A stretch of DNA of 41,003 nt from a virus: the UHGV virus genome UHGV-0224761; one strand, 5' to 3'. Positions 1-40,631 of this stretch are shown piece by piece (within the stretch, counting starts at the first letter, position 1; every line of letters starts with the position of its first letter). The translations under genes and the position numbers were made by a program. The notes under the pieces were generated by a model. That model searched no databases and had not been told where the DNA came from. It saw only the letters and a program-made list of their open reading frames with translations.

Positions 1-555
1 GCCGCCCTGTGTCAGCAGGGTAATTGCGTCATCCACCGGATGCATCAGGTACCAGGTTTTATTGCTCTGCTTGGTGATCTTAAATACACCCTCTGACAAC
101 TGAATTCCGCCATTCTTAATGCTCCAGCCCTGCGCAGCAGCGTCTCCGGCTGTCGGCAACAGGGAGATTGTGCGTACGGATGCATCTTCAGACGGCCCCG
201 ATGGCGTGTCGCCACCGGGCGAGGGTTTGATTTCCGGTGCCTTACCACTGATGAAGGCTGAGGTGCGCCCGGCTGCGTTCAGAATAGCGGTTGCCATACG
301 ATCCGGAATAATGCTCCTGCGCGCCCATGAACTGAAATGTGTCGGGCGGTTTGATGATACCTGGTTTCCATTCGTTCTCGATGCCGCACCGTAATATCCT
401 GATGCCGGAATATCCGGATCTTCTGCCGGTGCGTTAGTGGCGGTATTGACGCCGTTACCGTCTGTCATGAAGGGCACAAAATAAACGCCCTCACTCTCCC
501 TGTTTTTATACCCGCCGTACACGGTGTCGTACTGGGTAGCGTATGTATTTTTCCA
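1..555 (-). pseudogene. 3' fragment of a host SGNH/sialate-O-acetylesterase-like gene cut by the prophage; continues past the left edge of the window
   Basis: Minus-strand frame with no start codon reads ...WKNTYATQYDTVYGGYK...FVPFMTDGNG...HFSSWARR..., collinear with the C-terminal half of the 684-aa paralogue at 35366..37420. It joins in frame with the 5' fragment at 39779..40631 once the prophage is removed. Confidence 0.7.
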
Positions 556-560
556 GTAAT
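556..560. repeat. Left copy of a putative 5-bp target-site duplication (GTAAT)
   Basis: Lies immediately outside the TG-initiated prophage end; matches ATAAT at 39774..39778 in 4 of 5 positions, and either copy restores the codons TAT-TAC/TAT-TGG of the interrupted gene. Confidence 0.55.
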
Positions 561-740
561 TGTAACCAGGTGAATCATTTGATACCGACAAGGGTTTTAG
601 TGAAAGGAGGTGAAATCACCTGTAAGATGCTGAAATAAAACAGGTGATGTATACTTCGGACGGAAAACTCTTTTTGATACCGACTGCTCAACAAATAGTC
701 AAAAGATCAAAAAACGGCGACACATTTGATACTGCTAATT
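561..740 (+). repeat. Left end (attL) with three putative transposase-binding repeats
   Basis: Direct copies of TTTGATACCGA at 578..588 and 673..683 and a degenerate TTTGATACTGC at 726..736; the same motif occurs inverted at the right end. Confidence 0.6.
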
Positions 741-916
741 TACCCTTAAAATCTTCTTCAAAACATCTTCAAACTGCCAAAATGCTCACATAATCGATCT
801 AACTATAATCAGTATGATAATCATCATGAATTACTATTCAATAGCGTGATTATCTTGGGATGAGTCATATGATCTCTATATGTATTTACAGCACCACCTC
901 ATGATAGCGATGGCGC

Positions 917-1528
917 TTAACCAACAACATTTTTCTTTACTGTCACTGCCCCTGATTCCTGGGTGGCGTTATTGCTCGAGTTGTACTTCTCAATAACGCG
1001 CAAAATCTCTTTGTCTGTTTCTTCACTTCCCGCCATTCCTATCTTTATTGCATTTTTTAGTACGGGACGTAATGGCAAGGCATCAATGATGCTTTCTACC
1101 GCATCCTGGCTGATTGTAGATGTATTCATTGCTGCCAGCCTGACAAGGTTGTTAGTACCTTCTCGCCTGATGAATGTAAGGATTAATTGCTTCTCTTGGG
1201 GGCTTAGAGAGCTAAGCGCCTGATCAATACCCGAACCTGAATCGCAATTTTTTCCGATTTTTCCGCATTCATCTTCGTTCTTGCCTGTGGCCAACCAGTC
1301 GAGTGAACAATTACAGGCTTTAGCTATTAAGGCCAGTTTATCCAAAGGAGGGAAGTTTTTCCCCTTCCTGTAATTTCTTACTGTGGCTTCAGATAGTCCA
1401 CAAAGGGTCGCCAGTTCGACGTTTGTCATGTTTCCCATAGCCATAGCTAAGCGTTCTGAAAATCGGTTTATTCCTTCCATATCAATAAACCGTTCCGCAC
1501 TGGATACGGTTTTTTCTGCCTTATCCAT
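917..1528 (-). CDS. c: Mu-type repressor (c-like), helix-turn-helix
   Basis: 203-aa ORF divergent from ner at the left end, as in Mu; HTH-like segment ...NVELATLCGLSEATVRNYRKG.... Confidence 0.6.
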   Translation of the reverse strand: MDKAEKTVSSAERFIDMEGINRFSERLAMAMGNMTNVELATLCGLSEATVRNYRKGKNFPPLDKLALIAKACNCSLDWLATGKNEDECGKIGKNCDSGSGIDQALSSLSPQEKQLILTFIRREGTNNLVRLAAMNTSTISQDAVESIIDALPLRPVLKNAIKIGMAGSEETDKEILRVIEKYNSSNNATQESGAVTVKKNVVG

Positions 1529-1684
1529 ATAACCCCCTATAAAACAAAGAAATTATCGACATCGCATTTAATTTCGATATGCTCGCAAAAAACCGTTGAT
1601 ATCGAATTATTTTGCGATTATGATTTACCTAAATCGATAACCGGTTTTGATTATCGGTTCAGGTAAACATGAGAGGATCACACA
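1529..1684. promoter_or_regulatory. Divergent c/ner operator-promoter region with repeated TCGATA/TATCGA motifs
   Basis: 156-bp AT-rich intergenic region between divergent c and ner, with at least five copies of ATCGA(T/A)A-like half-sites (ttatcgacatcg, ttcgatatg, gatatcgaa, aatcgataac, gattatcgg). Confidence 0.5.
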
Positions 1685-1951
1685 ATGAGGGTATCCAGAC
1701 AAGCATCGAATAATTTGTTTGTTCGAGAGGGGTGTGACTGGTCTGCTAAAGCGGTATATGCAGCCCTTGAAAACAAAGGCACAGACCTCCCTGAACTGGA
1801 AAGGGAGTTAGGATTAAAAAGCGGATCAATGCGCAATGTGTTTTACCGCCAGTGCCGTAAATACGAAGCCGCCATCGCCGAAAAAATAGGGGTTGAACCT
1901 GCTGTAATCTGGCCCAGCAGATACCAGGTGGACGCCAGAGAAGTGGCTTGA
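1685..1951 (+). CDS. ner: Ner-like DNA-binding regulator
   Basis: C-terminal ...PAVIWPSRYQ... matches the conserved Ner/Nlp signature; sits between the repressor and the transposase; RBS agagga upstream. Confidence 0.85.
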   Translation: MRVSRQASNNLFVREGCDWSAKAVYAALENKGTDLPELERELGLKSGSMRNVFYRQCRKYEAAIAEKIGVEPAVIWPSRYQVDAREVA

Positions 1952-5841: not shown

Positions 5842-6110
5842 GTAAAGTCGTACGCATTATTTTCGAATATAAGGAGCACGTTATCCATAAAAACGCTGAT
5901 GGAACAGTGCGCATGGGGGTAAGTCTGGACATACGTTCAACCGGGATAAAGCAGAAAGGTGATGGACCCGCCATGATTTTTGGGGTGGTTATGCTGGCAG
6001 AAAGCAGAAACTTCGCAGAGTTTGTGGCAATGAAAGCCAGTGCATTCATGAAAGACAGAGGCATGACTTCCGGGGTTATTAACGGTAATGAATTTAATCA
6101 ACAGGGGTAA
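5838..6110 (+). CDS. Hypothetical early protein, paralogue 1 (MSKVVRIIFEY...)
   Basis: ORF with RBS agagg; N-terminus similar to the next gene. Confidence 0.45.
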   Translation: MSKVVRIIFEYKEHVIHKNADGTVRMGVSLDIRSTGIKQKGDGPAMIFGVVMLAESRNFAEFVAMKASAFMKDRGMTSGVINGNEFNQQG

Positions 6111-6114
6111 TTCC

Positions 6115-6408
6115 ATGAGCAAAGTACGCGTTATTTTTGAATTTAATCATGTTTCGCATGACGAAAAGTTGGCAGGCAATGACTGTGTTGAAGTGCATGA
6201 AAAGATTGGAGTGGATGTGAAAACAGAACGTGATACGGATAACAGGCCGACGTCACTCTGTGACGTTTATGCAAGTATTCTCCAGTATCACAGTCCTGCA
6301 ATTATTCAGTTTCTCTCAGCGGAATTTCAGGCATCTGCACAGTCTTTTGGAGCGGATGCCATCATTAAACGCCACCGCGTGCATAAAGCATCAGGCACAC
6401 TGCAATAA
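6115..6408 (+). CDS. Hypothetical early protein, paralogue 2 (MSKVRVIFEF...)
   Basis: Internal ATG of the 6088 ORF gives an N-terminus paralogous to the preceding gene. Confidence 0.45.
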   Translation: MSKVRVIFEFNHVSHDEKLAGNDCVEVHEKIGVDVKTERDTDNRPTSLCDVYASILQYHSPAIIQFLSAEFQASAQSFGADAIIKRHRVHKASGTLQ

Positions 6409-6419
6409 GGAAAAACAAA

Positions 6420-6950
6420 ATGGCTAAACGCGTTACAAAATTAAAGGCCGCAGCCGAGGCGGCACCGCAGACCCGGGAAGAAGTCAGCCGTGATATCCGC
6501 ACCCTGGGAGATATTCAGCGAGAGGCGCTGCGCCTGGAAACGGCGATGAATGACGAAGTGGCAGAAATCACCGCCCGTTATACGCCGCAGATTGAAAATC
6601 TTAAAAAGCAAATCAAAGTGCTTTTTAAAGGGATTCAGGACTGGTGCAAAACCAACCGTGATGAGCTGACGAACGGCGGCAAAACCAAAACAGCCAATCT
6701 GACCACCGGAACGGTGTCATGGCGGCTGGGAACGCCATCATGCAGCGTCAGCCGTGATGTGGAAGGTGTGATTGAAATGCTGCGCCGTATGGGGCTTGAG
6801 CGTTTCATCCGCACGAAAGAGGAAGTGAACAAGGAAGCCGTCCTGGCGGAGCCGGATGCTGTGAAAGGCATTGCCGGTATCAAGGTGAATAAAGGCGCTG
6901 AAAGTTTTTATGTCGAGCCTTTTGAACAGGACGCCGGACTGAATAAATAA
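6420..6950 (+). CDS. gam: Gam host-nuclease inhibitor (Ku-like DNA-end-binding)
   Basis: 176 aa; ...GDIQREALRLETAMNDEVAEIT... and ...NRDELTNGGKTKTANLTTGTVSWR...RFIRTKEEVNKEA... closely parallel Mu Gam. Confidence 0.9.
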   Translation: MAKRVTKLKAAAEAAPQTREEVSRDIRTLGDIQREALRLETAMNDEVAEITARYTPQIENLKKQIKVLFKGIQDWCKTNRDELTNGGKTKTANLTTGTVSWRLGTPSCSVSRDVEGVIEMLRRMGLERFIRTKEEVNKEAVLAEPDAVKGIAGIKVNKGAESFYVEPFEQDAGLNK

Positions 6951-7095
6951 CACCGCATTAATCAATTAAATATCACTTCATTTTAATTATGGCGCTCGCG
7001 TCAGGGGACTGCTTGCGCCTGAAAACAGAAAATAAGGGTTAAGAAATATGAAATACGTTTATATCGTCATTAATAATGTGGTGGGGAAATAAATC

Positions 7096-7629
7096 ATGAT
7101 TGATGCAAAAGTGCTTGAAGGGGTTAAAAACTGGCTGCGTATTTATGGCCGCCTGACCTGCGGTGTACTGGCTGAAAAAATGAATATGCCGCCATCCTCC
7201 ATGGTTTATTTTCTGCGTGATGCGGTTGATGCAGGCGTGCTGACGGAATGTAACGGTTTTTATGATATTCCGCGCCCCCGCCCGGTGCAGCCGGTTCGTC
7301 GCAAATGCAGCCAGGAATCTGCGGCTGATGATGTTCAGTGGTGCAGCTTCAGAAAATCCCTGCCATGGATTGAGGGGCATGATATTCCGTCGATGGCGTG
7401 GGAATTTGCTCAGGGCGTTCTGACCTGTGAAACCGTTTATGTGGTGGCTGAAGTTGATGAGCAGGCCATGAAAGAAGGCGTGCCCCAGTTTGTGATGGCG
7501 TATATCGACATACGCCTGGGCGTCATTATCTGCGGTTTAAGCGGCTGGAATATCACTGAACATGTTCTGCGCTACCTGATTGTTGACCGGACAGCAGCGC
7601 CTGCCGGGATATCTGCGGAGGTGGCGTAA
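7096..7629 (+). CDS. Hypothetical early protein
   Basis: 177-aa ORF with RBS. Confidence 0.4.
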   Translation: MIDAKVLEGVKNWLRIYGRLTCGVLAEKMNMPPSSMVYFLRDAVDAGVLTECNGFYDIPRPRPVQPVRRKCSQESAADDVQWCSFRKSLPWIEGHDIPSMAWEFAQGVLTCETVYVVAEVDEQAMKEGVPQFVMAYIDIRLGVIICGLSGWNITEHVLRYLIVDRTAAPAGISAEVA

Positions 7630-8699: not shown

Positions 8700-9025
8700 T
8701 AACGACCTTATTTGTTGAATCAGATGAACCTCTTGTGTGTGCCGCCGGAATGCCGCTCTGTGGCGGAACGCTGACCGGTGTTTATTTCGGGGATTTACGC
8801 GGTTATCCCTGGCATTCACTGAATGATGCTTTCCCACCTGATATGGAGGCTGTCGTGCTGATTGTTCAGTATGGTCACCGTCAGGAGCTGCGCATCGGCC
8901 ATATGGGGTATGAAGGCTTTTTTGTTGATGAAGAAACCGGAGCCTGCCTTGAAGATGAAGACGGACAGGTGACGCACTGGTGTCATATTTCGGCTTTACC
9001 GGAATTACGGGAGGTGAATGCGTGA
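8696..9025 (+). CDS. Hypothetical early protein
   Basis: 109-aa ORF, coupled start. Confidence 0.4.
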   Translation: MITTLFVESDEPLVCAAGMPLCGGTLTGVYFGDLRGYPWHSLNDAFPPDMEAVVLIVQYGHRQELRIGHMGYEGFFVDEETGACLEDEDGQVTHWCHISALPELREVNA

Positions 9026-9372
9026 GAAGTTATATTGATAATGAAAAGCTGGAGACAATAAGCGACTGTCTTAGCTTGCTGGCAAAAATCAAAGAAACTA
9101 TTGAAGAGATTAAATTTCAGCTTGAATACGCACCATGTGGCGATGATGCATGGCGTAATGCTGCCAGAAAAGCACTGGCTGTCTTTCAGAAACAACGCCG
9201 GGCTGTTGAATACCGCCTTGCTGTATTGCGCCAGGAGGAAAAGGAAAGAAATATAAGACGTCATGAACGCGTTAATGACTTCCTTGTTCGTGAATTAAAA
9301 GGGCGCGTGCCGGAGTCGGTATTTTTTGAATGTGAGGCTATAGCCCGTAGCAAAGCACTGGAAACAGATTAA
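9022..9372 (+). CDS. Hypothetical coiled-coil protein (GTG start)
   Basis: GTG start preceded by gggagg, overlapping the upstream stop; the track ORF 8980..9372 shares this frame. Confidence 0.4.
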   Translation: MRSYIDNEKLETISDCLSLLAKIKETIEEIKFQLEYAPCGDDAWRNAARKALAVFQKQRRAVEYRLAVLRQEEKERNIRRHERVNDFLVRELKGRVPESVFFECEAIARSKALETD

Positions 9373-9387
9373 GCAGGCTGGTGAATA

Positions 9388-9696
9388 ATGAGTATTGAAT
9401 TAAGATCGTCTTATGAATATCGCAAAATCCTTATCGCCGGAGGCATGAAACCGGAAGATGCAGAGAAATTCGTTTCTTTTATGGATAAAGAATGTGACAA
9501 GCGGGATATGCCAGAAATTATTATGGATGACATGATTCTGGATTCAGCCGTGGCGTTAAGTCCGTTATGGATTGTGCATACTCTTGCGGAAATAGCTAAA
9601 AGAAGTGACAAGCAGGCGGCTGTCGCCGCCCTGCGATTACTGGCTGAATTAAGTTGTTCAGTCAATCCCAATACGTTCTTTGACGAACCTGGTTAA
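9388..9696 (+). CDS. Hypothetical early protein
   Basis: 102-aa ORF with RBS. Confidence 0.4.
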   Translation: MSIELRSSYEYRKILIAGGMKPEDAEKFVSFMDKECDKRDMPEIIMDDMILDSAVALSPLWIVHTLAEIAKRSDKQAAVAALRLLAELSCSVNPNTFFDEPG

Positions 9697-10068
9697 CATT
9701 GATTTGGTAACTTCTTTAATTAGATCAAATGGTGCGTCTGTAAACTCCTTTTTGATTCTTTCAAGGATTGGTTTTTTTCTCAGGGCGTTAGCTAAATCAT
9801 GCCCCTGCTGGGTAAGCATAATGGGCGTGTTTCTGAAACCAACGCCCAGAGAATGGAAAAAGAAACCAATATATTTGGGTGTTTCTGACTGCATATCACC
9901 ATTAACAATTGAGCCATTATCAGCGAGAAGCATAAGATGAAAAACTTTTTTATCCTTTTCCTCTCCTTCTGCCTCAGCCATGCCCAGATCCTGTAGTGTA
10001 AGGAAAGGTGTTTCAGCATCCTGAAAAGTTGTGAGAATACTTAATACTTCATCGTAATCTATTTTCAT
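9658..10068 (-). CDS. Reverse-oriented hypothetical protein (moron candidate)
   Basis: 136-aa ORF on the opposite strand inside the otherwise unidirectional early operon; the locus is visibly AT-rich compared with its flanks; converges on the upstream gene with a 39-bp overlap. Confidence 0.5.
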   Translation of the reverse strand: MKIDYDEVLSILTTFQDAETPFLTLQDLGMAEAEGEEKDKKVFHLMLLADNGSIVNGDMQSETPKYIGFFFHSLGVGFRNTPIMLTQQGHDLANALRKKPILERIKKEFTDAPFDLIKEVTKSMLTRFVKERIGID

Positions 10069-10132
10069 ATCGATACCTTTAGTTTTATCCGGGCGGCGTT
10101 GCCATGCCGCCTGTTGTTACGGAGACACGATA

Positions 10133-10645
10133 ATGAATCGCGCTTCCCTGATTACCTTAATACATGTCGCAAAACGCGATCTACAGCTTGACCATGAGAC
10201 CTACACATCCGTACTACTGGCAGCCACCGGCAAACCCAGTTGCCGGGATATGTCACCGGATGAGTTATCCCGCGTGCTGGATGTTTTCAAAAAACGCGGT
10301 TTTAAAGTGCGTCAGAAGCCGGTTAACCGGGCCTTAAAACCGGGTACGGTGACCGCCAAAATTCGCGCCATCTGGAAGGTGATGCACCGGCAGGGCTTTA
10401 TCTCTGATGGCGGGGAAACAGCCCTTAACCGCTGGGTGAAATCGCAGACGGCCGCTCAGAACGGCGGCGAAGGTGTGGCTAACTGGCAGTGGCTGGAACA
10501 ACACCCCGCGCTGGCCTCTGATGTGCTGGAGCGTCTCAAACGCTGGCACCGCCGCAAGATGCTGGATGTGCTGGGGATGCCAGCGCGTACAGTGATGAGT
10601 TATGAGCGCGTTTGCAGGCTGTATGAAGAATCCTCCCCCTTTTAA
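10133..10645 (+). CDS. gemA: GemA-like protein (Mu gp16 / DUF1018-like)
   Basis: N-terminus MNRASLITLIHVAKRDLQLDHETY is typical of GemA/gp16-family proteins; sits just upstream of the Mor/C-family gene. Confidence 0.65.
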   Translation: MNRASLITLIHVAKRDLQLDHETYTSVLLAATGKPSCRDMSPDELSRVLDVFKKRGFKVRQKPVNRALKPGTVTAKIRAIWKVMHRQGFISDGGETALNRWVKSQTAAQNGGEGVANWQWLEQHPALASDVLERLKRWHRRKMLDVLGMPARTVMSYERVCRLYEESSPF

Positions 10646-10652
10646 CCCCAAA

Positions 10653-10680
10653 CCCCGCCACAGCGCGGGATTTTTATTTT
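10653..10680 (+). terminator. Rho-independent terminator after gemA
   Basis: GC stem cccgc...gcggg followed by atttttatttt. Confidence 0.6.
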
Positions 10681-10715
10681 AAACTTGCCCTGTGTAATGA
10701 TGACCGGAGGCGGGT

Positions 10716-11138
10716 ATGGCTGAAACACAGATGAGCATGTTTGGTGACAGCGAACAGCTGCACGCGCTGATTGACCGTCTGGATGATATTCCTGATGATG
10801 AGCTGAAAAAGAACTGGCCCGGCACGCTGCGGGACCTGGTTGATGTGATCAGTGCTGAACTGCACCGTCAGGGGATTGAACCTGCTCAGGCGGGAATGCT
10901 TGCCCGTAAGGTTGCAGCCGCACAGGCCGGGTACATGGGCGGGCGTGGTTATTATCTCCCGGTCGGTGAATCCCTTTTCACCGAACTGCGCAATAATGAA
11001 ATTTTTTCCCGCTGGAGCCAGGGCGAAAAAATTGAAACCCTGCGCCGCCACTACCAGATGTCAGAGACGCAGATTTACTCCGTTATCCGCAACCAGCGTC
11101 GCCTGCATCAGGAACGCACGCAGCCACGGCTTTTCTGA
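10716..11138 (+). CDS. mor: Mor/C-family transcriptional activator
   Basis: 140 aa; acidic N-terminus and C-terminal HTH (...ETLRRHYQMSETQIYSVIRNQRR...) resemble Mu Mor/C; sits between gemA and lys. Whether it is the Mor or the C equivalent cannot be resolved. Confidence 0.7.
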   Translation: MAETQMSMFGDSEQLHALIDRLDDIPDDELKKNWPGTLRDLVDVISAELHRQGIEPAQAGMLARKVAAAQAGYMGGRGYYLPVGESLFTELRNNEIFSRWSQGEKIETLRRHYQMSETQIYSVIRNQRRLHQERTQPRLF

Positions 11139-32783: not shown

Positions 32784-33673
32784 TGTTTCATGTTGATAAT
32801 AATTCCGGCGTGGCGAATATGCCTGCGCTGGCACCGGCGCAGAGTAATACCACCACCTGGTTTACCGAAGGTGACGGACAAAAAGGTATCAGCTGGATTG
32901 GTCAGGACTGGCTGAATATTCTCCAGGCCGAACTGCTGAATATTCTGGCTGAAGCCAGTATTCAGCCGGATAAGGCGCAGTTAAACCAGCTTACGCTGTC
33001 CATTAAAGCCATTATCGCTGCGAATGCCTTTTCCCGGAAAAATAACCTGAAAGAAATTGCTGATGCCGGTGCGGAGGCCCAGCGTCTGGCCCGTGGTTAT
33101 CTTGGTCTGGGGACGCTTGCCACAAAAAACAGTCTTGGTCCCGCTGACGTTAATGCCCTGGCGAAGGATCAGAATCTCGCCGACCTGGAGAATAAGGGAA
33201 CCGCCCGTAATAATCTGGATGTTTACAGCAAAAGCGAAGGTGATAACCGTTACCTGCGCAGGGAGCAGAACGGCGCAGACATTCCGGATAAAGGGGCTTT
33301 TATCGATAACGTCGGTTTACGGGAAACGGTAAACAGGGCGGCGAATGCTCTGCCATCGGACGGCACCGCCGTTGCCGCGAATAGACTCGCCACCCCAAGA
33401 AATATTAATGGGGTTCCCTTTGACGGGACGCAGGACATAAACATCACTTCTGGTATAACACAGCAGGATGCGGATTCCCGATATATCCAGGATATCAGGC
33501 TGGGAGCAGAGAACAGGCAGGTAATGTACGGTGGGGCATATTACTCTGCGTACGGTAATGTTATGGCAGGCCTGCAGATTGACAGTAAAGTTGATGCTTC
33601 AAACGATTTTATAGCATTCAGACCCCTGCAAAAATTAGTCGGAGGTACATGGATTACGGTATCTCAGTTATAA
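32783..33673 (+). CDS. S: Tail fibre protein S: constant part fused to the variable part Sv in the present orientation
   Basis: 296 aa; the gix crossover site lies at about codon 177; the C-terminus ...[18 protein letters not shown] is paralogous to the alternative Sv' tip. Confidence 0.7.
33300..33325. promoter_or_regulatory. gix-like recombination site, left (TTATCGATAACG-TC-GGTTTACGGGAA)
   Basis: 26-bp site with dyad symmetry matching the Gin/Hin crossover-site pattern; an inverted copy lies at 34617..34642. Confidence 0.7.
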
Positions 33674-33724
33674 ATAGTCAGTAAATAATATATTTTAAAA
33701 CAGATTTATTTCCAGGAGGATTTT

Positions 33725-34246
33725 ATGGAACTAAAAAATATAACCCGTTATTATCCTGAAAATATGCCATATGGTAATAATGTTCAGTATTTCCAGAGTG
33801 AAGATGGTAAGGATTTCTACGAATCCCTGCCATTATTCACCAAAAAATATAAACTTTGCATAACACCTGACAGCGGCGTTATCTGCTCAATATCACAGGA
33901 CGCCTCGGCGCTGTATCCTGCGGGGTTTTCTGTGGTTGAGGTCGATGAACTCCCTGAAGGCACGGATATTTCAGGAAACTGGAAGTTTGATAATGGCATA
34001 ATCTCCCGTATTCCGGTTAACTACGCAAGAAAACTGGAAGCAATGCGCCAGTCATATCTTAATCAGGCATATGAAAAAATTAATGACTGGAGAACGGAGC
34101 TACAACTGGGCACCATCAGCGATGAAGACAGAGCAGCACTTACCCAATGGATGGCATACATCAGTCAGGTGAAGAAAATGGAACTACCCGCCATTAAAAC
34201 AGAAGCTGAATTTAACGCCATTAAATGGCCTGAGCAGCCACAGTAA
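33725..34246 (+). CDS. U: Tail fibre assembly protein (U-like)
   Basis: 173-aa ORF immediately after S with RBS aggagg. Confidence 0.6.
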   Translation: MELKNITRYYPENMPYGNNVQYFQSEDGKDFYESLPLFTKKYKLCITPDSGVICSISQDASALYPAGFSVVEVDELPEGTDISGNWKFDNGIISRIPVNYARKLEAMRQSYLNQAYEKINDWRTELQLGTISDEDRAALTQWMAYISQVKKMELPAIKTEAEFNAIKWPEQPQ

Positions 34247-38037: not shown

Positions 38038-38204
38038 CAATACAAACCGGTGGTGTCCTCTGCCGGTTTGACACTAATGAAAACATCTTTGCCGCTATCC
38101 AGCCATATGTAATCGCTGGATAGTATTTCGTATTCAGAAATATAGCTGCTTATGGAGCAGTCAATCCTGCTTCCCCATCCGGGCAGGCAAATGAACCGGT
38201 ATCA

Positions 38205-38498
38205 TTAGTCCGATTCACGCTTTTGTAGAATCGTTCCCAGAATGCTATACAGCTCATTAGCCTGTTGCTCCATCATTGAGACGGAGGCTATACGGTGCAA
38301 AGTGATTTCAGGAGGTGGCACACCTCCATCTTCTTGCTGTGGAGGAAAAACATAAGATTTAATAAAAAAGTTGAAGCATATGAACTCTCCCGCACTCGAA
38401 CTGTATTTGCAGGCATCTGAATAATCGGAAAAATAATCATTATAGATTTCCGCATTTTCAATCATTTTTCGATTTCTCGTCGTTACATGATTGTCCAT
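38205..38498 (-). CDS. Hypothetical protein in an AT-rich island (cargo, reverse orientation)
   Basis: 97-aa ORF on the minus strand; the surrounding 38040..38710 region is AT-rich compared with the rest of the prophage. Confidence 0.45.
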   Translation of the reverse strand: MDNHVTTRNRKMIENAEIYNDYFSDYSDACKYSSSAGEFICFNFFIKSYVFPPQQEDGGVPPPEITLHRIASVSMMEQQANELYSILGTILQKRESD

Positions 38499-38686
38499 AG
38501 CAGCCTCTTACGCTGGCAATTAACCAATTGACTTCTATAAATTAGTTGATTTGTTTGCTTTGCGGTATTCAAATGTACAATCATTCAGCACTTATGCGTT
38601 ACAGCACCGTTTAAAATTAGTGATCAAACTCATAAATTTTCGCTAATGACATTTCGTGTTATTTGTTGTATCAATTAAATAAATCA

Positions 38687-38711
38687 AATCGATCGTTTTT
38701 GTCGATCGATT
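38687..38711. promoter_or_regulatory. Perfect palindrome AATCGATCG-N7-CGATCGATT with two GATC sites upstream of com
   Basis: 9-bp inverted repeat with GATC at 38691..38694 and 38705..38708. Confidence 0.5.
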
Positions 38712-38754
38712 GAGTGATAAAGATATCAACAACAAAGCAGGAGGTTATGCGGCC

Positions 38755-38955
38755 ATGTATCGAAACATACGGTGCCGACATTGTAACAAGCTACTGGCAC
38801 GAGCCAGCTTCAGTTATCTGGAAGTTAAATGTCCGCGCTGTAAAACCCTCAATCAAATCACATCTCAGAGCGCCACAGAGCACCCCACATACACAAGGAA
38901 ATCCTGTCGTGGGGAACAGAAAGCAAGTTACATCCCGTATCATCAGCACGCCTGA
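38755..38955 (+). CDS. com: Com zinc-finger translational activator of mom
   Basis: ...[30 protein letters not shown]...EHPT parallels the Mu Com Cys4 zinc finger; the track ORF begins upstream at 38710 with a non-ATG start. Confidence 0.8.
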
Positions 38956-39646
38956 ACTTATTCACTATAACGACAATATCGTCGGTTATGGCTCCCGTGA
39001 GTTACGGGTTGAGACAATAAGTTGCTGGCTGGCCCGGCTGGTCGTCGTCAATAAACATTACAGCCATCGTTTCGTAAATAATTCCTACCTTCATCTGGGC
39101 ATATTTTCAGAACGGGAGCTGGTTGGCGTAATGCAATGGGGTTATGCCCTTAATCCAAACAATGGTGCACGCGTCGTAACTGGCACGCAGAACCGCGAAT
39201 ATATGGAGCTTAACCGGTTATGGCTGCATGACTGTATGCCGAGAAACTCCGAATCAAGGGCAATCAGTTACGCGCTCAAACTAATCAGACAACTTTATCC
39301 GCAGGTGCAGTGGGTTCAGTCGTTTGCAGATGAGCGTTGTGGCTGTCTTGGTGTCGTGTACCAGGCAAGCAATTTTGATTATGTAGGCAGTCATGAAACA
39401 ACATTCTATGAACTTGATGGCGAGTGGTATCACGAGATTTGCAAGAATGCAATCAAACGAGGAGGACAGCGAGGTGAACATCTGCGGGCTAATATCGACA
39501 GAGCCAGTGTTCATAAATTCCGTCAGTTTCGTTACATCCGGTTTCTGGACAAGAGAGCCAGAAAACGCCTTAACACAAAGCTATTCAAAGTCCAGCCTTA
39601 CCCAAAACCACAAACAGTTAAAACTGGTTTGAAAGAGAGTGAATGA
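38909..39646 (+). CDS. mom: Mom-like DNA modification protein
   Basis: Start overlaps the 3' end of com and it is the last gene before the right end, as in Mu; GTG start after RBS aagga lying inside a palindrome aggaaatcct. Start is approximate (the track ORF extends upstream to 38714). Confidence 0.55.
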
Positions 39647-39689
39647 ACGCTTAAAAACTCATTCTAAAACTCAAAAGAAAAGCGCCGAT

Positions 39690-39773
39690 TTAGTATCAAA
39701 TAAGTTGCGTATCGGCGTTTTTCAGCGGTATCAAATGAAATGCAAATCGGTATCAAAAAAATCGCCGCGCTAT
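39690..39773 (+). repeat. Right end (attR) with three inverted transposase-binding repeats
   Basis: Reverse complements of TTTGATACCGA at 39748..39758, TTTGATACCGC at 39725..39735 and TTTGATACT at 39692..39700; the terminus ...CGCCGCGCTAT resembles the Mu right end. Confidence 0.6.
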
Positions 39774-39778
39774 ATAAT
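39774..39778. repeat. Right copy of the putative 5-bp target-site duplication (ATAAT)
   Basis: Pairs with GTAAT at 556..560. Confidence 0.55.
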
Positions 39779-40631
39779 ACGTCGTGTCACCACAAATCCA
39801 CGGCACATTTACAGCACTGCCACCATGACACTGCGCGTTAAACACAGTGAGGTCAGCACGAAACTGCTTCAGCATGGCTGTAAACAGCGCAGGTTGCTGT
39901 GCGTAGGTGGCGGCGCTCATGTCAAACTCTCCCTGCATCCAGCACACCGCCAGCAACACATTTTTCGGGTTCTTCTGTAATGCAGCTTTAGTGCGCGCAA
40001 TCAGGTCCTGATATAACGGTTTACCCACCCCCCAGCGCGCCGAATCCTGGCTGGCCCCCGCGTCCGCACTGAATGTCCCCTCCGCGCCCCGGGTGAATGC
40101 CGAACCACCACGACAGCATGGTACCAGCAGGATCCCCGCGTTATTCGGGATATACGGGAGCAGTTTTTTGGCAATATGTAAGCCCTGGCCGACACAGCCG
40201 TACTGCCCTTTGCTCAGGTCTGCCTTCGGATGATTCAGCGTACTCATATCCTGCACATCATGCAGACAGTGGTCAGCCGGGATGATGTCGTTATACGTAC
40301 AACTCTCTCCACCCGGAGTTACCGTGCTGCGGCGCGCCAGCTGTTTAATGCGCGGATCCGGAGCATCGTAAGAATCCGGTAACGGAAGCCCTTCACCGTA
40401 GGCCATGCCGTTGGACTGTCCGGCAAGCACAACCACGTAGAACCAGTCCGGCTCAGATGAAGGGCCGACCTGTGGATCTCCTTCAATAGCCACCGCCTGC
40501 ATCAGTGTGTACGGCGTAATGGCAACCGGTCCGCCATATGGCTGCCAGCCCTCTTTCAGTTTGTGTGTCAGCTTTTCCGCAAGGTCTGACGGCGACGCCG
40601 CCCTGACAACATCATAGTGTTTAAATGCCAT
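39779..40631 (-). pseudogene. 5' fragment of the host SGNH/sialate-O-acetylesterase-like gene cut by the prophage
   Basis: N-terminal about 285 aa ending ...VNVPWICGDTTYY; in the track ORF (39753..40631) the last six codons (IARRFF-stop) are read from prophage-end sequence; SGNH motif VVVLAGQSNGMAYGEG. Confidence 0.7.

What the first reader, a model, noticed from the sequence alone, without database searches (positions are those of the whole stretch)
9658..10132. Reverse-oriented AT-rich moron inside the early operon
The 136-aa minus-strand ORF at 9658..10068 interrupts an otherwise strictly rightward early operon, is markedly AT-rich relative to its neighbours, and converges on the upstream gene with a 39-bp overlap, so it needs its own promoter in 10069..10132. 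An independently transcribed foreign insert in the Mu semi-essential region is a typical location for lysogen-expressed defence or fitness factors.
Basis: seen in the sequence. Interest (0 to 1): 0.5.

Follow-up and report, generated by a model that had tools for sequence, protein, structure and literature searches.

The report
Reverse winged-helix gene in Mu-like prophage
The backward-facing ORF is a real gene for a small acidic winged-helix protein of unknown function (DUF2513), and it travels with the gene it overlaps as an optional, AT-rich two-gene cassette that always sits antisense to a prophage's lytic operon.

Summary
ORF 9658..10068(-) is a real, conserved gene, and RefSeq already annotates it as a "DUF2513 domain-containing protein". 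Its GC is 0.387 against 0.537 for the window. It overlaps the upstream + strand gene by exactly 39 bp.

The gene is not a lone insert. It is half of a conserved convergent pair, with 9388..9696(+) (phrog_1988) facing the DUF2513 gene (phrog_585). The pair recurs in about 28 distinct lineages. It occupies three unrelated positions: upstream of gemA, between gemA and mor, and inside a baseplate operon of non-Mu prophages. The DUF2513 gene is always antisense to the phage operon.

Only 6 of 5426 complete E. coli genomes carry it. Sister prophages fill the same mosaic hotspot with other genes.

The protein models confidently (pLDDT 97) as a MarR/PadR/TubR-like winged helix plus three C-terminal helices. 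The family is acidic, and this copy lacks its near-invariant wing arginine. It matches no known defence model.

No convincing sigma-70 promoter lies in 10069..10132. That spacer is dominated by a + strand terminator-like hairpin.

Best reading: a portable accessory (moron-type) cassette expressed when the lytic operon is silent. Its function is untested.

The parts
9658..10068 (-). Gene for a 136-aa acidic winged-helix protein of the DUF2513 / phrog_585 family
9388..9696 (+). Convergent partner gene (102 aa, phrog_1988), a five-helix protein with a disordered C-terminal tail
9658..9696 (.). 39-bp codon-aligned antisense overlap of the two 3' ends
   Evidence: Coordinates. The same 39-bp overlap occurs in L006, L007, L008, L018, L024, L033 and others. 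Overlaps of 30, 29 and 18 bp, or a gap of 0-3 nt, occur in other clades. The partner's overlap-encoded tail is missing in non-overlapping clades and is predicted disordered.
10069..10132 (.). Divergent spacer between the DUF2513 start and the gemA start; proposed promoter region
   Evidence: No consensus promoter. Best minus-strand position-weight-matrix score is 4.86. The spacer is only 30 nt in relatives L021-L040.
10090..10113 (+). GC-rich hairpin (10-bp stem, 4-nt loop) followed by TTGTT, immediately 5' of the gemA Shine-Dalgarno; terminator-like on the early-operon strand
   Evidence: RNAfold of 10066..10135 gives -21.8 kcal/mol. Equivalent hairpins followed by T-rich runs (six to eight consecutive T in L005, L018 and L024) sit at the same place in L005, L006, L018, L024 and L063. 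The two G.U wobbles pair only in + strand RNA (read from the sequence).
9362..10159 (.). Extent of the swappable segment relative to E. coli M18 prophage (L066), covering both cassette genes, the spacer and the first 27 nt of gemA
   Evidence: blastn breakpoints: versus L066 at 9361/10160, versus L003 at 9632/10160, versus L005 at 9011/10114, versus L067 at 9013/10160.
10133..10645 (+). gemA (gp16 family), the divergent right-hand neighbour (context)
   Evidence: Pfam GemA E 2.8e-28.

Best explanation
ORF 9658..10068(-) encodes a stand-alone, acidic winged-helix protein of the uncharacterised DUF2513 family. Together with the convergent gene 9388..9696(+) it forms an AT-rich, optional two-gene cassette. 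The cassette has been planted in several places in the lytic operons of temperate phages of Enterobacterales.

The cassette is always oriented the same way. The small helical partner is read with the phage operon, and the DUF2513 gene is antisense to it.

The most likely logic, which is inferred and not shown, runs as follows. In the lysogen the early operon is repressed and the DUF2513 gene can be transcribed from a weak promoter of its own. That promoter would lie in or beyond the 64-bp spacer, probably reaching into gemA. On induction, early transcription must cross the whole DUF2513 gene to reach gemA and mor. This silences the gene by collision and by full-length antisense RNA, while the partner protein is made at the same time.

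The protein itself probably acts by binding a nucleic acid or another protein, through its winged-helix domain and basic C-terminal helices. It does not look like an enzyme.

Shown: the gene is real, the fold, the pairing, the orientation rule, the presence/absence pattern and the composition. Inferred: expression in lysogeny, antisense shut-off, and any benefit to the host or prophage such as exclusion or defence.
For: Real gene and fold.

Conserved convergent pair:
- The pair is found starting from the DUF2513 side and starting from the partner side.
- Pairwise identities of the two proteins co-vary (Mantel r 0.81, 0 of 5000 permutations reach it).

Three independent insertion contexts:
- Upstream of gemA: E. 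coli, Citrobacter, Edwardsiella, Klebsiella.
- Between gemA and mor: L041, L048, Kluyvera L079/L080.
- Between the spike and sheath-initiator genes of a non-Mu baseplate operon: Providencia L060-62, and L042/44/46.

Orientation rule: in every paired locus with flanking ORFs to count, most flanking coding sequence is on the strand opposite the DUF2513 gene.

Optional status and hotspot: 6 of 5426 E. coli genomes carry it, and alternative fillings have sharp breakpoints.

Composition: the pair is 3-12 GC points (DUF2513 gene 5-12) below its locus in nine lineages.

Autonomy of the DUF2513 gene: it occurs as single-gene integron cassettes in Vibrio.

Own promoter plausible for the family: TTGATA-17-GATATT lies 43 nt upstream of the gene in the baseplate context.

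Precedent: lysogen-expressed genes that overlap early-operon genes in antisense and give superinfection exclusion exist in the Pseudomonas transposable phage Fc02 (PMC9936078).
Against: - No convincing promoter upstream of the gene in this window, and no terminator downstream of it.
- No expression data of any kind.
- No match to any PADLOC defence model, and no literature on DUF2513 function.
- The partner gene survives without the DUF2513 gene in more than 200 O157/O103-type prophages.
- The DUF2513 gene occurs without the partner in L030-32, in a Klebsiella lambdoid phage and in Vibrio. The two are therefore not strictly interdependent.
- The near-invariant wing arginine (R84, 111 of 116 members) is methionine here.
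Confidence: 0.55

Rival explanations
1. The protein is part of the phage's own regulatory circuit. It would be a MarR/PadR-style winged-helix regulator, transcribed divergently from its target, that binds the GC-rich palindrome in the 64-bp spacer and controls gemA-mor, and with them the early-to-middle switch.
For: The fold is closest to TubR, PadR, MarR and HxlR DNA-binding proteins. The gene is divergent from gemA across a short spacer that contains a 10-bp inverted repeat. This gene-target arrangement is typical of MarR/PadR regulators (established knowledge).
Against: - The same gene pair sits in a baseplate operon of non-Mu prophages and between gemA and mor in others, away from any gemA leader.
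- It is absent from most otherwise near-identical E. coli Mu-like prophages.
- The palindrome is followed by a T-run in relatives and has G.U wobbles that only work on the + strand, so it reads as a terminator rather than an operator.
- Relatives with a 30-nt spacer lack the palindrome.
- The family is acidic: 89% of members are net negative, and the N-terminal domain here is -8. Most of the conserved positions of the 'recognition helix' are hydrophobic, and the wing arginine is lost here.
- There is no Pfam MarR or PadR hit.
Confidence: 0.15
2. The two genes are a functional two-component module. The DUF2513 protein would be an effector or sensor active in the lysogen (exclusion, abortive infection or toxin-like). 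The operon-encoded partner would be its antidote, made only when the prophage's own lytic programme runs, so the phage escapes its own weapon.
For: The convergent pairing, the fixed orientation and the co-divergence hold across three insertion contexts. The overlap keeps the two genes physically inseparable.
Against: Each gene occurs without the other. There is no toxin-like or enzymatic domain. There is no PADLOC hit. Interaction between the two proteins could not be tested. Co-divergence is expected for any two adjacent genes.
Confidence: 0.15
3. It is an anti-defence or host-takeover protein used during infection, for example a small acidic protein acting as a nucleic-acid mimic or inhibitor.
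For: It is small and acidic, with net charge -5. The Mu semi-essential early region is known to hold host-modulating genes (established knowledge).
Against: It is antisense to the early operon, so it would be the last gene expressed on infection. Homologues are chromosomal integron cassettes in Vibrio, where a phage counter-defence gene makes little sense. The fold is a winged helix, which is not a known mimic fold.
Confidence: 0.07
4. It is a chance ORF on the antisense strand of AT-rich DNA and not a gene.
For: AT-rich sequence produces long spurious ORFs, and no promoter or terminator was found.
Against: See the observation check. The frame is conserved at 30-55% identity, the synonymous-to-non-synonymous pattern indicates selection, there is a family-level HMM match, and the model has pLDDT 97.
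Confidence: 0.01

Closest known systems
Morons of temperate phages (lambdoid/HK97 sense; definition as quoted in PMC4378225)
   Same: It is optional between conserved neighbours in sister phages, deviates in nucleotide composition, and is oriented so that it can be expressed independently of the lytic operon.
   Different: It is a two-gene convergent unit, not a single promoter-gene-terminator unit. No recognisable own promoter or terminator is present in this window. One of the two genes is read with the host operon.
Pfam PF10711 DUF2513 / PHROG 585 (related family: PF09639 YjcQ of the B. subtilis skin element)
   Same: Homologous by profile, of the same length, a single-domain winged-helix architecture, and associated with prophages.
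   Different: The window protein on its own scores below Pfam's gathering threshold (23.6 against 29.6 bits). It replaces the near-invariant R84 with methionine. No member of the family has a known function.
MarR / PadR / HxlR / TubR winged-helix DNA-binding proteins
   Different: There is no sequence-family membership. The protein has an acidic surface charge. Few conserved polar or basic residues lie on the 'recognition helix'. Helix 2 of the helix-turn-helix is replaced by a loop in the model. The gene is portable between unrelated operons.
olg1 / gene 10 of Pseudomonas transposable phage Fc02 (PMC9936078)
   Same: A gene on the lysogenic strand overlaps an early-operon gene in antisense in a Mu-type phage. 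There it is shown to be transcribed in the lysogen and to exclude superinfecting phages.
   Different: The Fc02 genes lie next to the repressor, not next to gemA. They have no sequence similarity to this gene and are of different sizes. Here neither expression nor exclusion has been tested.

Membership tests
Pfam DUF2513 (PF10711) | HMM score at or above the curated gathering threshold (29.6 bits) | tested here: not met
   23.6 bits, E 6.6e-5, aligned over 96 of 100 model positions.
Pfam DUF2513 (PF10711) | Transitive homology: close homologues of the protein are members | tested here: met
   89 of 116 aligned homologues hit DUF2513, best E 9e-15. The 50%-identical P0002 carries PF10711. RefSeq names WP_000687317.1 'DUF2513 domain-containing'. 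phrog_585 matches at E 7e-18 over the full length.
Pfam DUF2513 (PF10711) | Winged-helix fold (the family sits among HTH-type folds; its relative YjcQ is a winged helix, stated from memory) | tested here: met
Moron | Present or absent between the same neighbours in closely related phages | tested here: met
   6 of 5426 E. coli genomes carry it, and flanks are retained at 86-97% identity with sharp breakpoints.
Moron | Nucleotide composition differs from adjacent genes | tested here: met
   GC is 0.387 against 0.556 for gemA and 0.537 for the window. The partner and the next gene upstream are also low, at 0.424 and 0.438.
Moron | Own promoter | tested here: inconclusive
   The consensus scan finds none. 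The best position-weight-matrix hit in or near the spacer is 4.86, the 99.65th percentile of about 410,000 scored positions. Good candidates exist upstream of homologues in other contexts.
Moron | Own terminator | tested here: not met
   No minus-strand terminator-like site lies in 9300..10500, and the 3' end runs into the partner gene.
Moron | Expressed from the repressed prophage | not testable with these tools
   This needs strand-specific RNA-seq or 5' RACE of a lysogen.
MarR/PadR-type transcription regulators | Sequence membership (Pfam MarR, MarR_2, PadR) | tested here: not met
   No such hit at E <= 0.1. No PDB sequence hit.
MarR/PadR-type transcription regulators | Basic DNA-binding surface with a conserved wing arginine | tested here: not met
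   The N-terminal domain has net charge -8 (family mean -4.7). R84 is methionine in this protein.
MarR/PadR-type transcription regulators | Palindromic operator in the divergent spacer | tested here: inconclusive
   A GC-rich inverted repeat exists at 10090-10113. It behaves as a + strand terminator hairpin, and it is absent in relatives with 30-nt spacers.
Known anti-phage defence systems (PADLOC-DB 2.0) | HMM match to a component of a described system | tested here: not met
   No family at E <= 1 for the DUF2513 protein. Only a chance-level hit (E 0.068) for the partner.
Type II toxin-antitoxin modules | Two small co-directional, co-transcribed genes with a recognisable toxin or antitoxin fold | tested here: not met
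   The genes are convergent, not co-directional. No toxin or antitoxin family hit was found.

The most novel reading that the evidence does not exclude
The phrog_1988 / DUF2513 convergent pair is an undescribed prophage-borne exclusion or abortive-infection module with built-in self-immunity. The winged-helix protein would be made only in the lysogen and would block incoming phages or a step of lytic development. Its partner, read from the lytic operon, together with antisense transcription across the gene, would switch it off when the resident prophage itself is induced. The stand-alone integron-cassette versions in Vibrio would be the same effector without the phage-specific antidote.
Probability: 0.15. 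Interest if true: 0.65.

Novelty: new member of a known kind. Interest (0 to 1): 0.38.

Why it matters
The finding gives a concrete, testable handle on an uncharacterised protein family. The exhaustive search found 256 cluster representatives for it. Members occur in prophages of E. coli, Shigella, Klebsiella, Citrobacter and Providencia, and in Vibrio integron cassettes.

The fixed antisense orientation, the conserved convergent partner and the three independent insertion sites indicate selection for expression that is uncoupled from, and probably shut off by, lytic transcription.

If the module proves to be an exclusion or defence device, it would add a very small non-enzymatic system with an unusual convergent design. 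If it proves to be a regulator, it would reveal an optional control layer on the Mu gemA-mor switch.

As it stands, this is an ordinary accessory gene of unknown function whose existence is already annotated.

Tried and rejected
- **Chance ORF:** rejected.
- **Single-gene foreign insert:** rejected in favour of a two-gene cassette.
- **Promoter in 10069..10132:** the consensus scan and the position-weight-matrix scan found nothing above background.
- **Known defence system:** no PADLOC hit.
- **NCBIfam:** only noise.
- **Known RNA element in 9000..10800:** only a sub-threshold snoRNA hit, taken as chance.
- **Sequence relatives with solved structures:** none. Foldseek against PDB gave only weak MarR-like hits.
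- **Domain fusions of DUF2513 homologues:** none informative. The longer proteins look like mis-called starts.
- **Flanking direct or inverted repeats that could mark an insertion mechanism:** none.
- **Literature:**
  - 'DUF2513' occurs in one unrelated paper.
  - The PF10711, YjcQ and phrog_585 searches gave nothing on function.
  - The supplements of an integron-cassette survey are not held.
- **Viral-contig scan with the 116-sequence alignment:** failed because the alignment had no conserved stretch to search with. It was repeated with 10 close sequences.
- **A co-fold of the two proteins** could not be run.

Full report
**1. The observation**

The window is a Mu-like prophage. Gp11_C, GemA (10133..10645) and Mor (10716..11138) are recognised by Pfam. 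The region is 99.9% identical to a prophage of E. coli 102651.

The minus-strand ORF 9658..10068 exists. It has an ATG start and encodes 136 aa. An AAGG Shine-Dalgarno lies 7 nt upstream. It overlaps + strand ORF 9388..9696 by 39 bp. Reading the sequence shows that the two frames are codon-aligned antisense.

In the RefSeq annotation of the identical locus, 22 of 23 CDS are rightward. The one leftward CDS is this ORF, already named 'DUF2513 domain-containing protein'.

Its GC is 0.387, the 2nd percentile of 411-nt windows, against a window mean of 0.537. gemA is 0.556. The two genes to its left are also AT-rich, at 0.424 and 0.438. 'Markedly AT-rich relative to its neighbours' is therefore true only towards the right.

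**2. It is a gene**

- phrog_585 matches end to end at E 7e-18.
- An exhaustive HMMER search found 256 cluster representatives, nearly all 130-146 aa long.
- 89 of 116 aligned homologues hit Pfam DUF2513. The window protein itself is below the gathering score, at 23.6 against 29.6 bits.
- The frame stays open at 30-55% identity in dozens of loci.
- A near-identical allele differs by five third-position synonymous changes, one non-synonymous change and one change inside the stop codon.
- AlphaFold2 gives pLDDT 97.

**3. What the protein looks like**

The model has, in order, helix 5-17, a loop, helix 35-50, an extended beta wing at 54-85 and three further helices at 87-133.

The family is unusual for DNA binders:
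- 89% of members are net negative. The N-terminal domain averages -4.7 and is -8 here.
- Most of the conserved positions of the 'recognition' helix are hydrophobic core residues.
- The one near-invariant basic residue of the wing, R84 (111 of 116 members), is methionine in this protein and in the L018/L024 lineage.

There is no hit in PADLOC or NCBIfam. There are no informative domain fusions. There is no literature on function.

**4. The surroundings change the picture**

The two 50%-identical database homologues sit in the same arrangement: a divergent gemA homologue on one side, and a convergent gene of about 100 aa overlapping by exactly 39 bp on the other.

A scan of viral contigs and one of species-representative genomes, followed by profile searches of all ORFs, gave 50 distinct DUF2513 proteins of this clade. 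About 28 of them have a convergent homologue of 9388..9696 (phrog_1988). The overlap is 39, 30, 29 or 18 bp, or there is a gap of 0-3 nt.

Searching from the partner's side recovers the same pairs.

The pair occupies three unrelated places:
- Upstream of gemA: E. coli/Shigella, Citrobacter, Edwardsiella, Klebsiella.
- Between gemA and mor: L041, L048, Kluyvera.
- Between the spike and sheath-initiator genes in the baseplate operon of non-Mu prophages: Providencia L060-62, and L042/44/46.

In every paired locus with flanking ORFs to count, the partner runs with the surrounding operon and the DUF2513 gene runs against it.

Pairwise identities of the two proteins co-vary (Mantel r 0.81, 0 of 5000 permutations reach it). 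In nine lineages the DUF2513 gene is 5-12 and its partner 1-14 GC points below their locus.

**5. It is optional, and the site is a hotspot**

Of 5426 complete E. coli genomes, 231 match the flanks but only 6 hold the gene.

The alternatives at this site are:
- O157/O103-type prophages keep the partner gene with a different C-terminus and have two small forward ORFs instead.
- Strain M18 has a single forward ORF in place of both genes.
- Strain 600029 has another reverse ORF of 79 aa.
- Strain CP55 has a reverse 140-aa ORF between gemA and mor.

Breakpoints are sharp, at window positions 9011, 9361 or 9632 on the left and 10114 or 10160 on the right. No flanking repeats mark a mechanism.

The two genes are not strictly interdependent. 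The partner persists alone in the O157 type. The DUF2513 gene stands alone in another phage type (L030-32), between the lysis and terminase genes of a Klebsiella lambdoid phage, and in marine gammaproteobacteria. In Vibrio its homologues are single-gene cassettes bounded by VCR/attC-like repeats of chromosomal integrons.

**6. Transcription signals**

- The consensus scan finds none.
- The best position-weight-matrix candidate, -10 TATCGT at 10132..10127, is ordinary for this window.
- In relatives whose spacer is only 30 nt, any promoter must lie inside gemA.
- In other contexts good candidates do exist, for example TTGATA-17-GATATT 43 nt upstream of the gene in the baseplate loci. Independent transcription is therefore plausible for the family but unproven here.
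- No terminator follows the gene.

The spacer is dominated by a GC hairpin at 10090-10113 followed by TTGTT and then the gemA Shine-Dalgarno. Clearer versions, a stem followed by a T-rich run (six to eight consecutive T in L005, L018 and L024), sit at the same spot in L005, L006, L018, L024 and L063. G.U wobbles make the stem pair only in rightward RNA. The hairpin is absent where no reverse gene precedes gemA. It reads as a rightward terminator or attenuator in front of gemA. Its role is unexplained.

No Rfam family matches the region.

**7. Most likely mechanism**

In Mu, mor is the last gene of the early operon (established knowledge, from memory). Rightward early transcription must therefore traverse the whole DUF2513 gene in antisense.

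The fixed orientation in three independent contexts indicates selection for exactly this arrangement. The gene can be expressed only when the lytic operon is silent. It is shut off by collision and antisense RNA when the operon fires, at the moment its partner is made.

This is the logic of a moron or lysogenic-conversion gene. It has an experimentally supported parallel in the Pseudomonas transposable phage Fc02. There, lysogen-transcribed genes overlap an early gene in antisense and exclude superinfecting phages (PMC9936078).

What the protein does is not known. I favour binding of a nucleic acid or a protein through the winged helix and the basic C-terminal helices, in the service of the lysogen. 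I put this at about 0.55 overall. I put 'defence or exclusion' specifically at about 0.25.

The rivals are:
- An optional regulator of gemA-mor (0.15). The other insertion contexts, the acidity and the terminator-like nature of the palindrome weaken it.
- A two-component effector/antidote module (0.15).
- An infection-phase anti-defence protein (0.07).

**8. Comparison and novelty**

By the moron definition quoted in PMC4378225:
- Presence/absence is met.
- Deviant composition is met.
- An own promoter is inconclusive.
- An own terminator is not met.
- Expression from the repressed prophage is untestable here.

The unit is also two genes, not one. The protein belongs to DUF2513 by transitive homology and by fold, but not by the Pfam threshold. 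It is not a member of MarR/PadR, of any PADLOC system or of a type II toxin-antitoxin module.

The gene is already annotated, so its existence is not new. The findings that appear undescribed in the searched literature are the conserved convergent pairing, the orientation rule, the three insertion sites and the integron-cassette relatives.

I rate it a new member of a known kind, namely a prophage accessory gene of unknown function, of moderate interest.

Noticed in passing
window 10090-10113 (+); also L005 ~2976-2996, L006, L018, L024, L063 spacers: A GC-rich hairpin with a T-rich tail sits immediately 5' of the gemA Shine-Dalgarno, on the early-operon strand. It is present in the gemA-adjacent loci folded whose spacer is 64-78 nt (W, L005, L006, L018, L024, L063) but not in the 30-nt (L021) or L039 spacers. 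It is absent where a forward ORF is coupled to gemA. It looks like a terminator or attenuator in front of gemA-mor, and its purpose is unexplained.
   Followed up: partly
window ~9012-10160: This is a mosaic hotspot. Sister E. coli Mu-like prophages share flanks at 86-98% identity but carry at least four alternative gene sets here. Recurrent breakpoints lie at 9011/9013, 9361 and 9632 on the left and 10114 and 10160 on the right.
   Followed up: yes
L005 2710-2949 (-) and L067 3510-3932 (-): Two other E. coli Mu-like prophages carry unrelated reverse-oriented ORFs. One is 79 aa upstream of gemA and the other is 140 aa between gemA and mor. Neither has a Pfam match. Reverse accessory genes around gemA appear to be a recurring theme.
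   Followed up: partly
L076 4487-4954 and 7178-7684; L084 3622-4107: In Vibrio genomes, DUF2513 homologues (29-38% identity) are single-gene cassettes bounded by arrays of ~120-nt VCR/attC-like repeats that end in GCGTTAG or GCGTTAT. They are chromosomal integron cassettes. L076 holds two copies.
   Followed up: partly
L060-L062 2841-3191 (-): The Providencia prophage baseplate operon that hosts the gene pair also contains a second reverse-oriented gene. It has a Pfam PF03526 ('Microcin') hit and may be another moron.
   Followed up: no
window 9909-9938 (+): The best promoter-like site in the area, TTGAGC-18-TAAGAT, scores 8.56 (99.98th percentile). It lies inside the DUF2513 gene on the rightward strand and points at gemA.
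   Followed up: no
window residue 84 of the 136-aa protein (codon at ~9817-9819): The family's near-invariant wing arginine (111 of 116 members) is methionine in this protein and in the 52%-identical L018/L024 lineage. This marks a sub-clade with an altered wing.
   Followed up: partly
L016 1731-2140: One IMG/VR contig carries the same gene with a 1-nt deletion in an A7 run, which frameshifts the last third. This is either a pseudogene allele or a homopolymer assembly error.
   Followed up: no
window 381-1931, 6021-6451, 6861-7271, 33361-34131, 38061-39851: These are further stretches with GC <= 0.43 in a window that averages 0.537. They are candidates for other acquired or regulatory segments.
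   Followed up: no
window 8980-9372 (+): The next gene upstream (130 aa, phrog_6158) is also AT-rich (GC 0.438). It is missing from L005 and L067, so it too is variable, but it does not travel with the pair in other contexts.
   Followed up: partly
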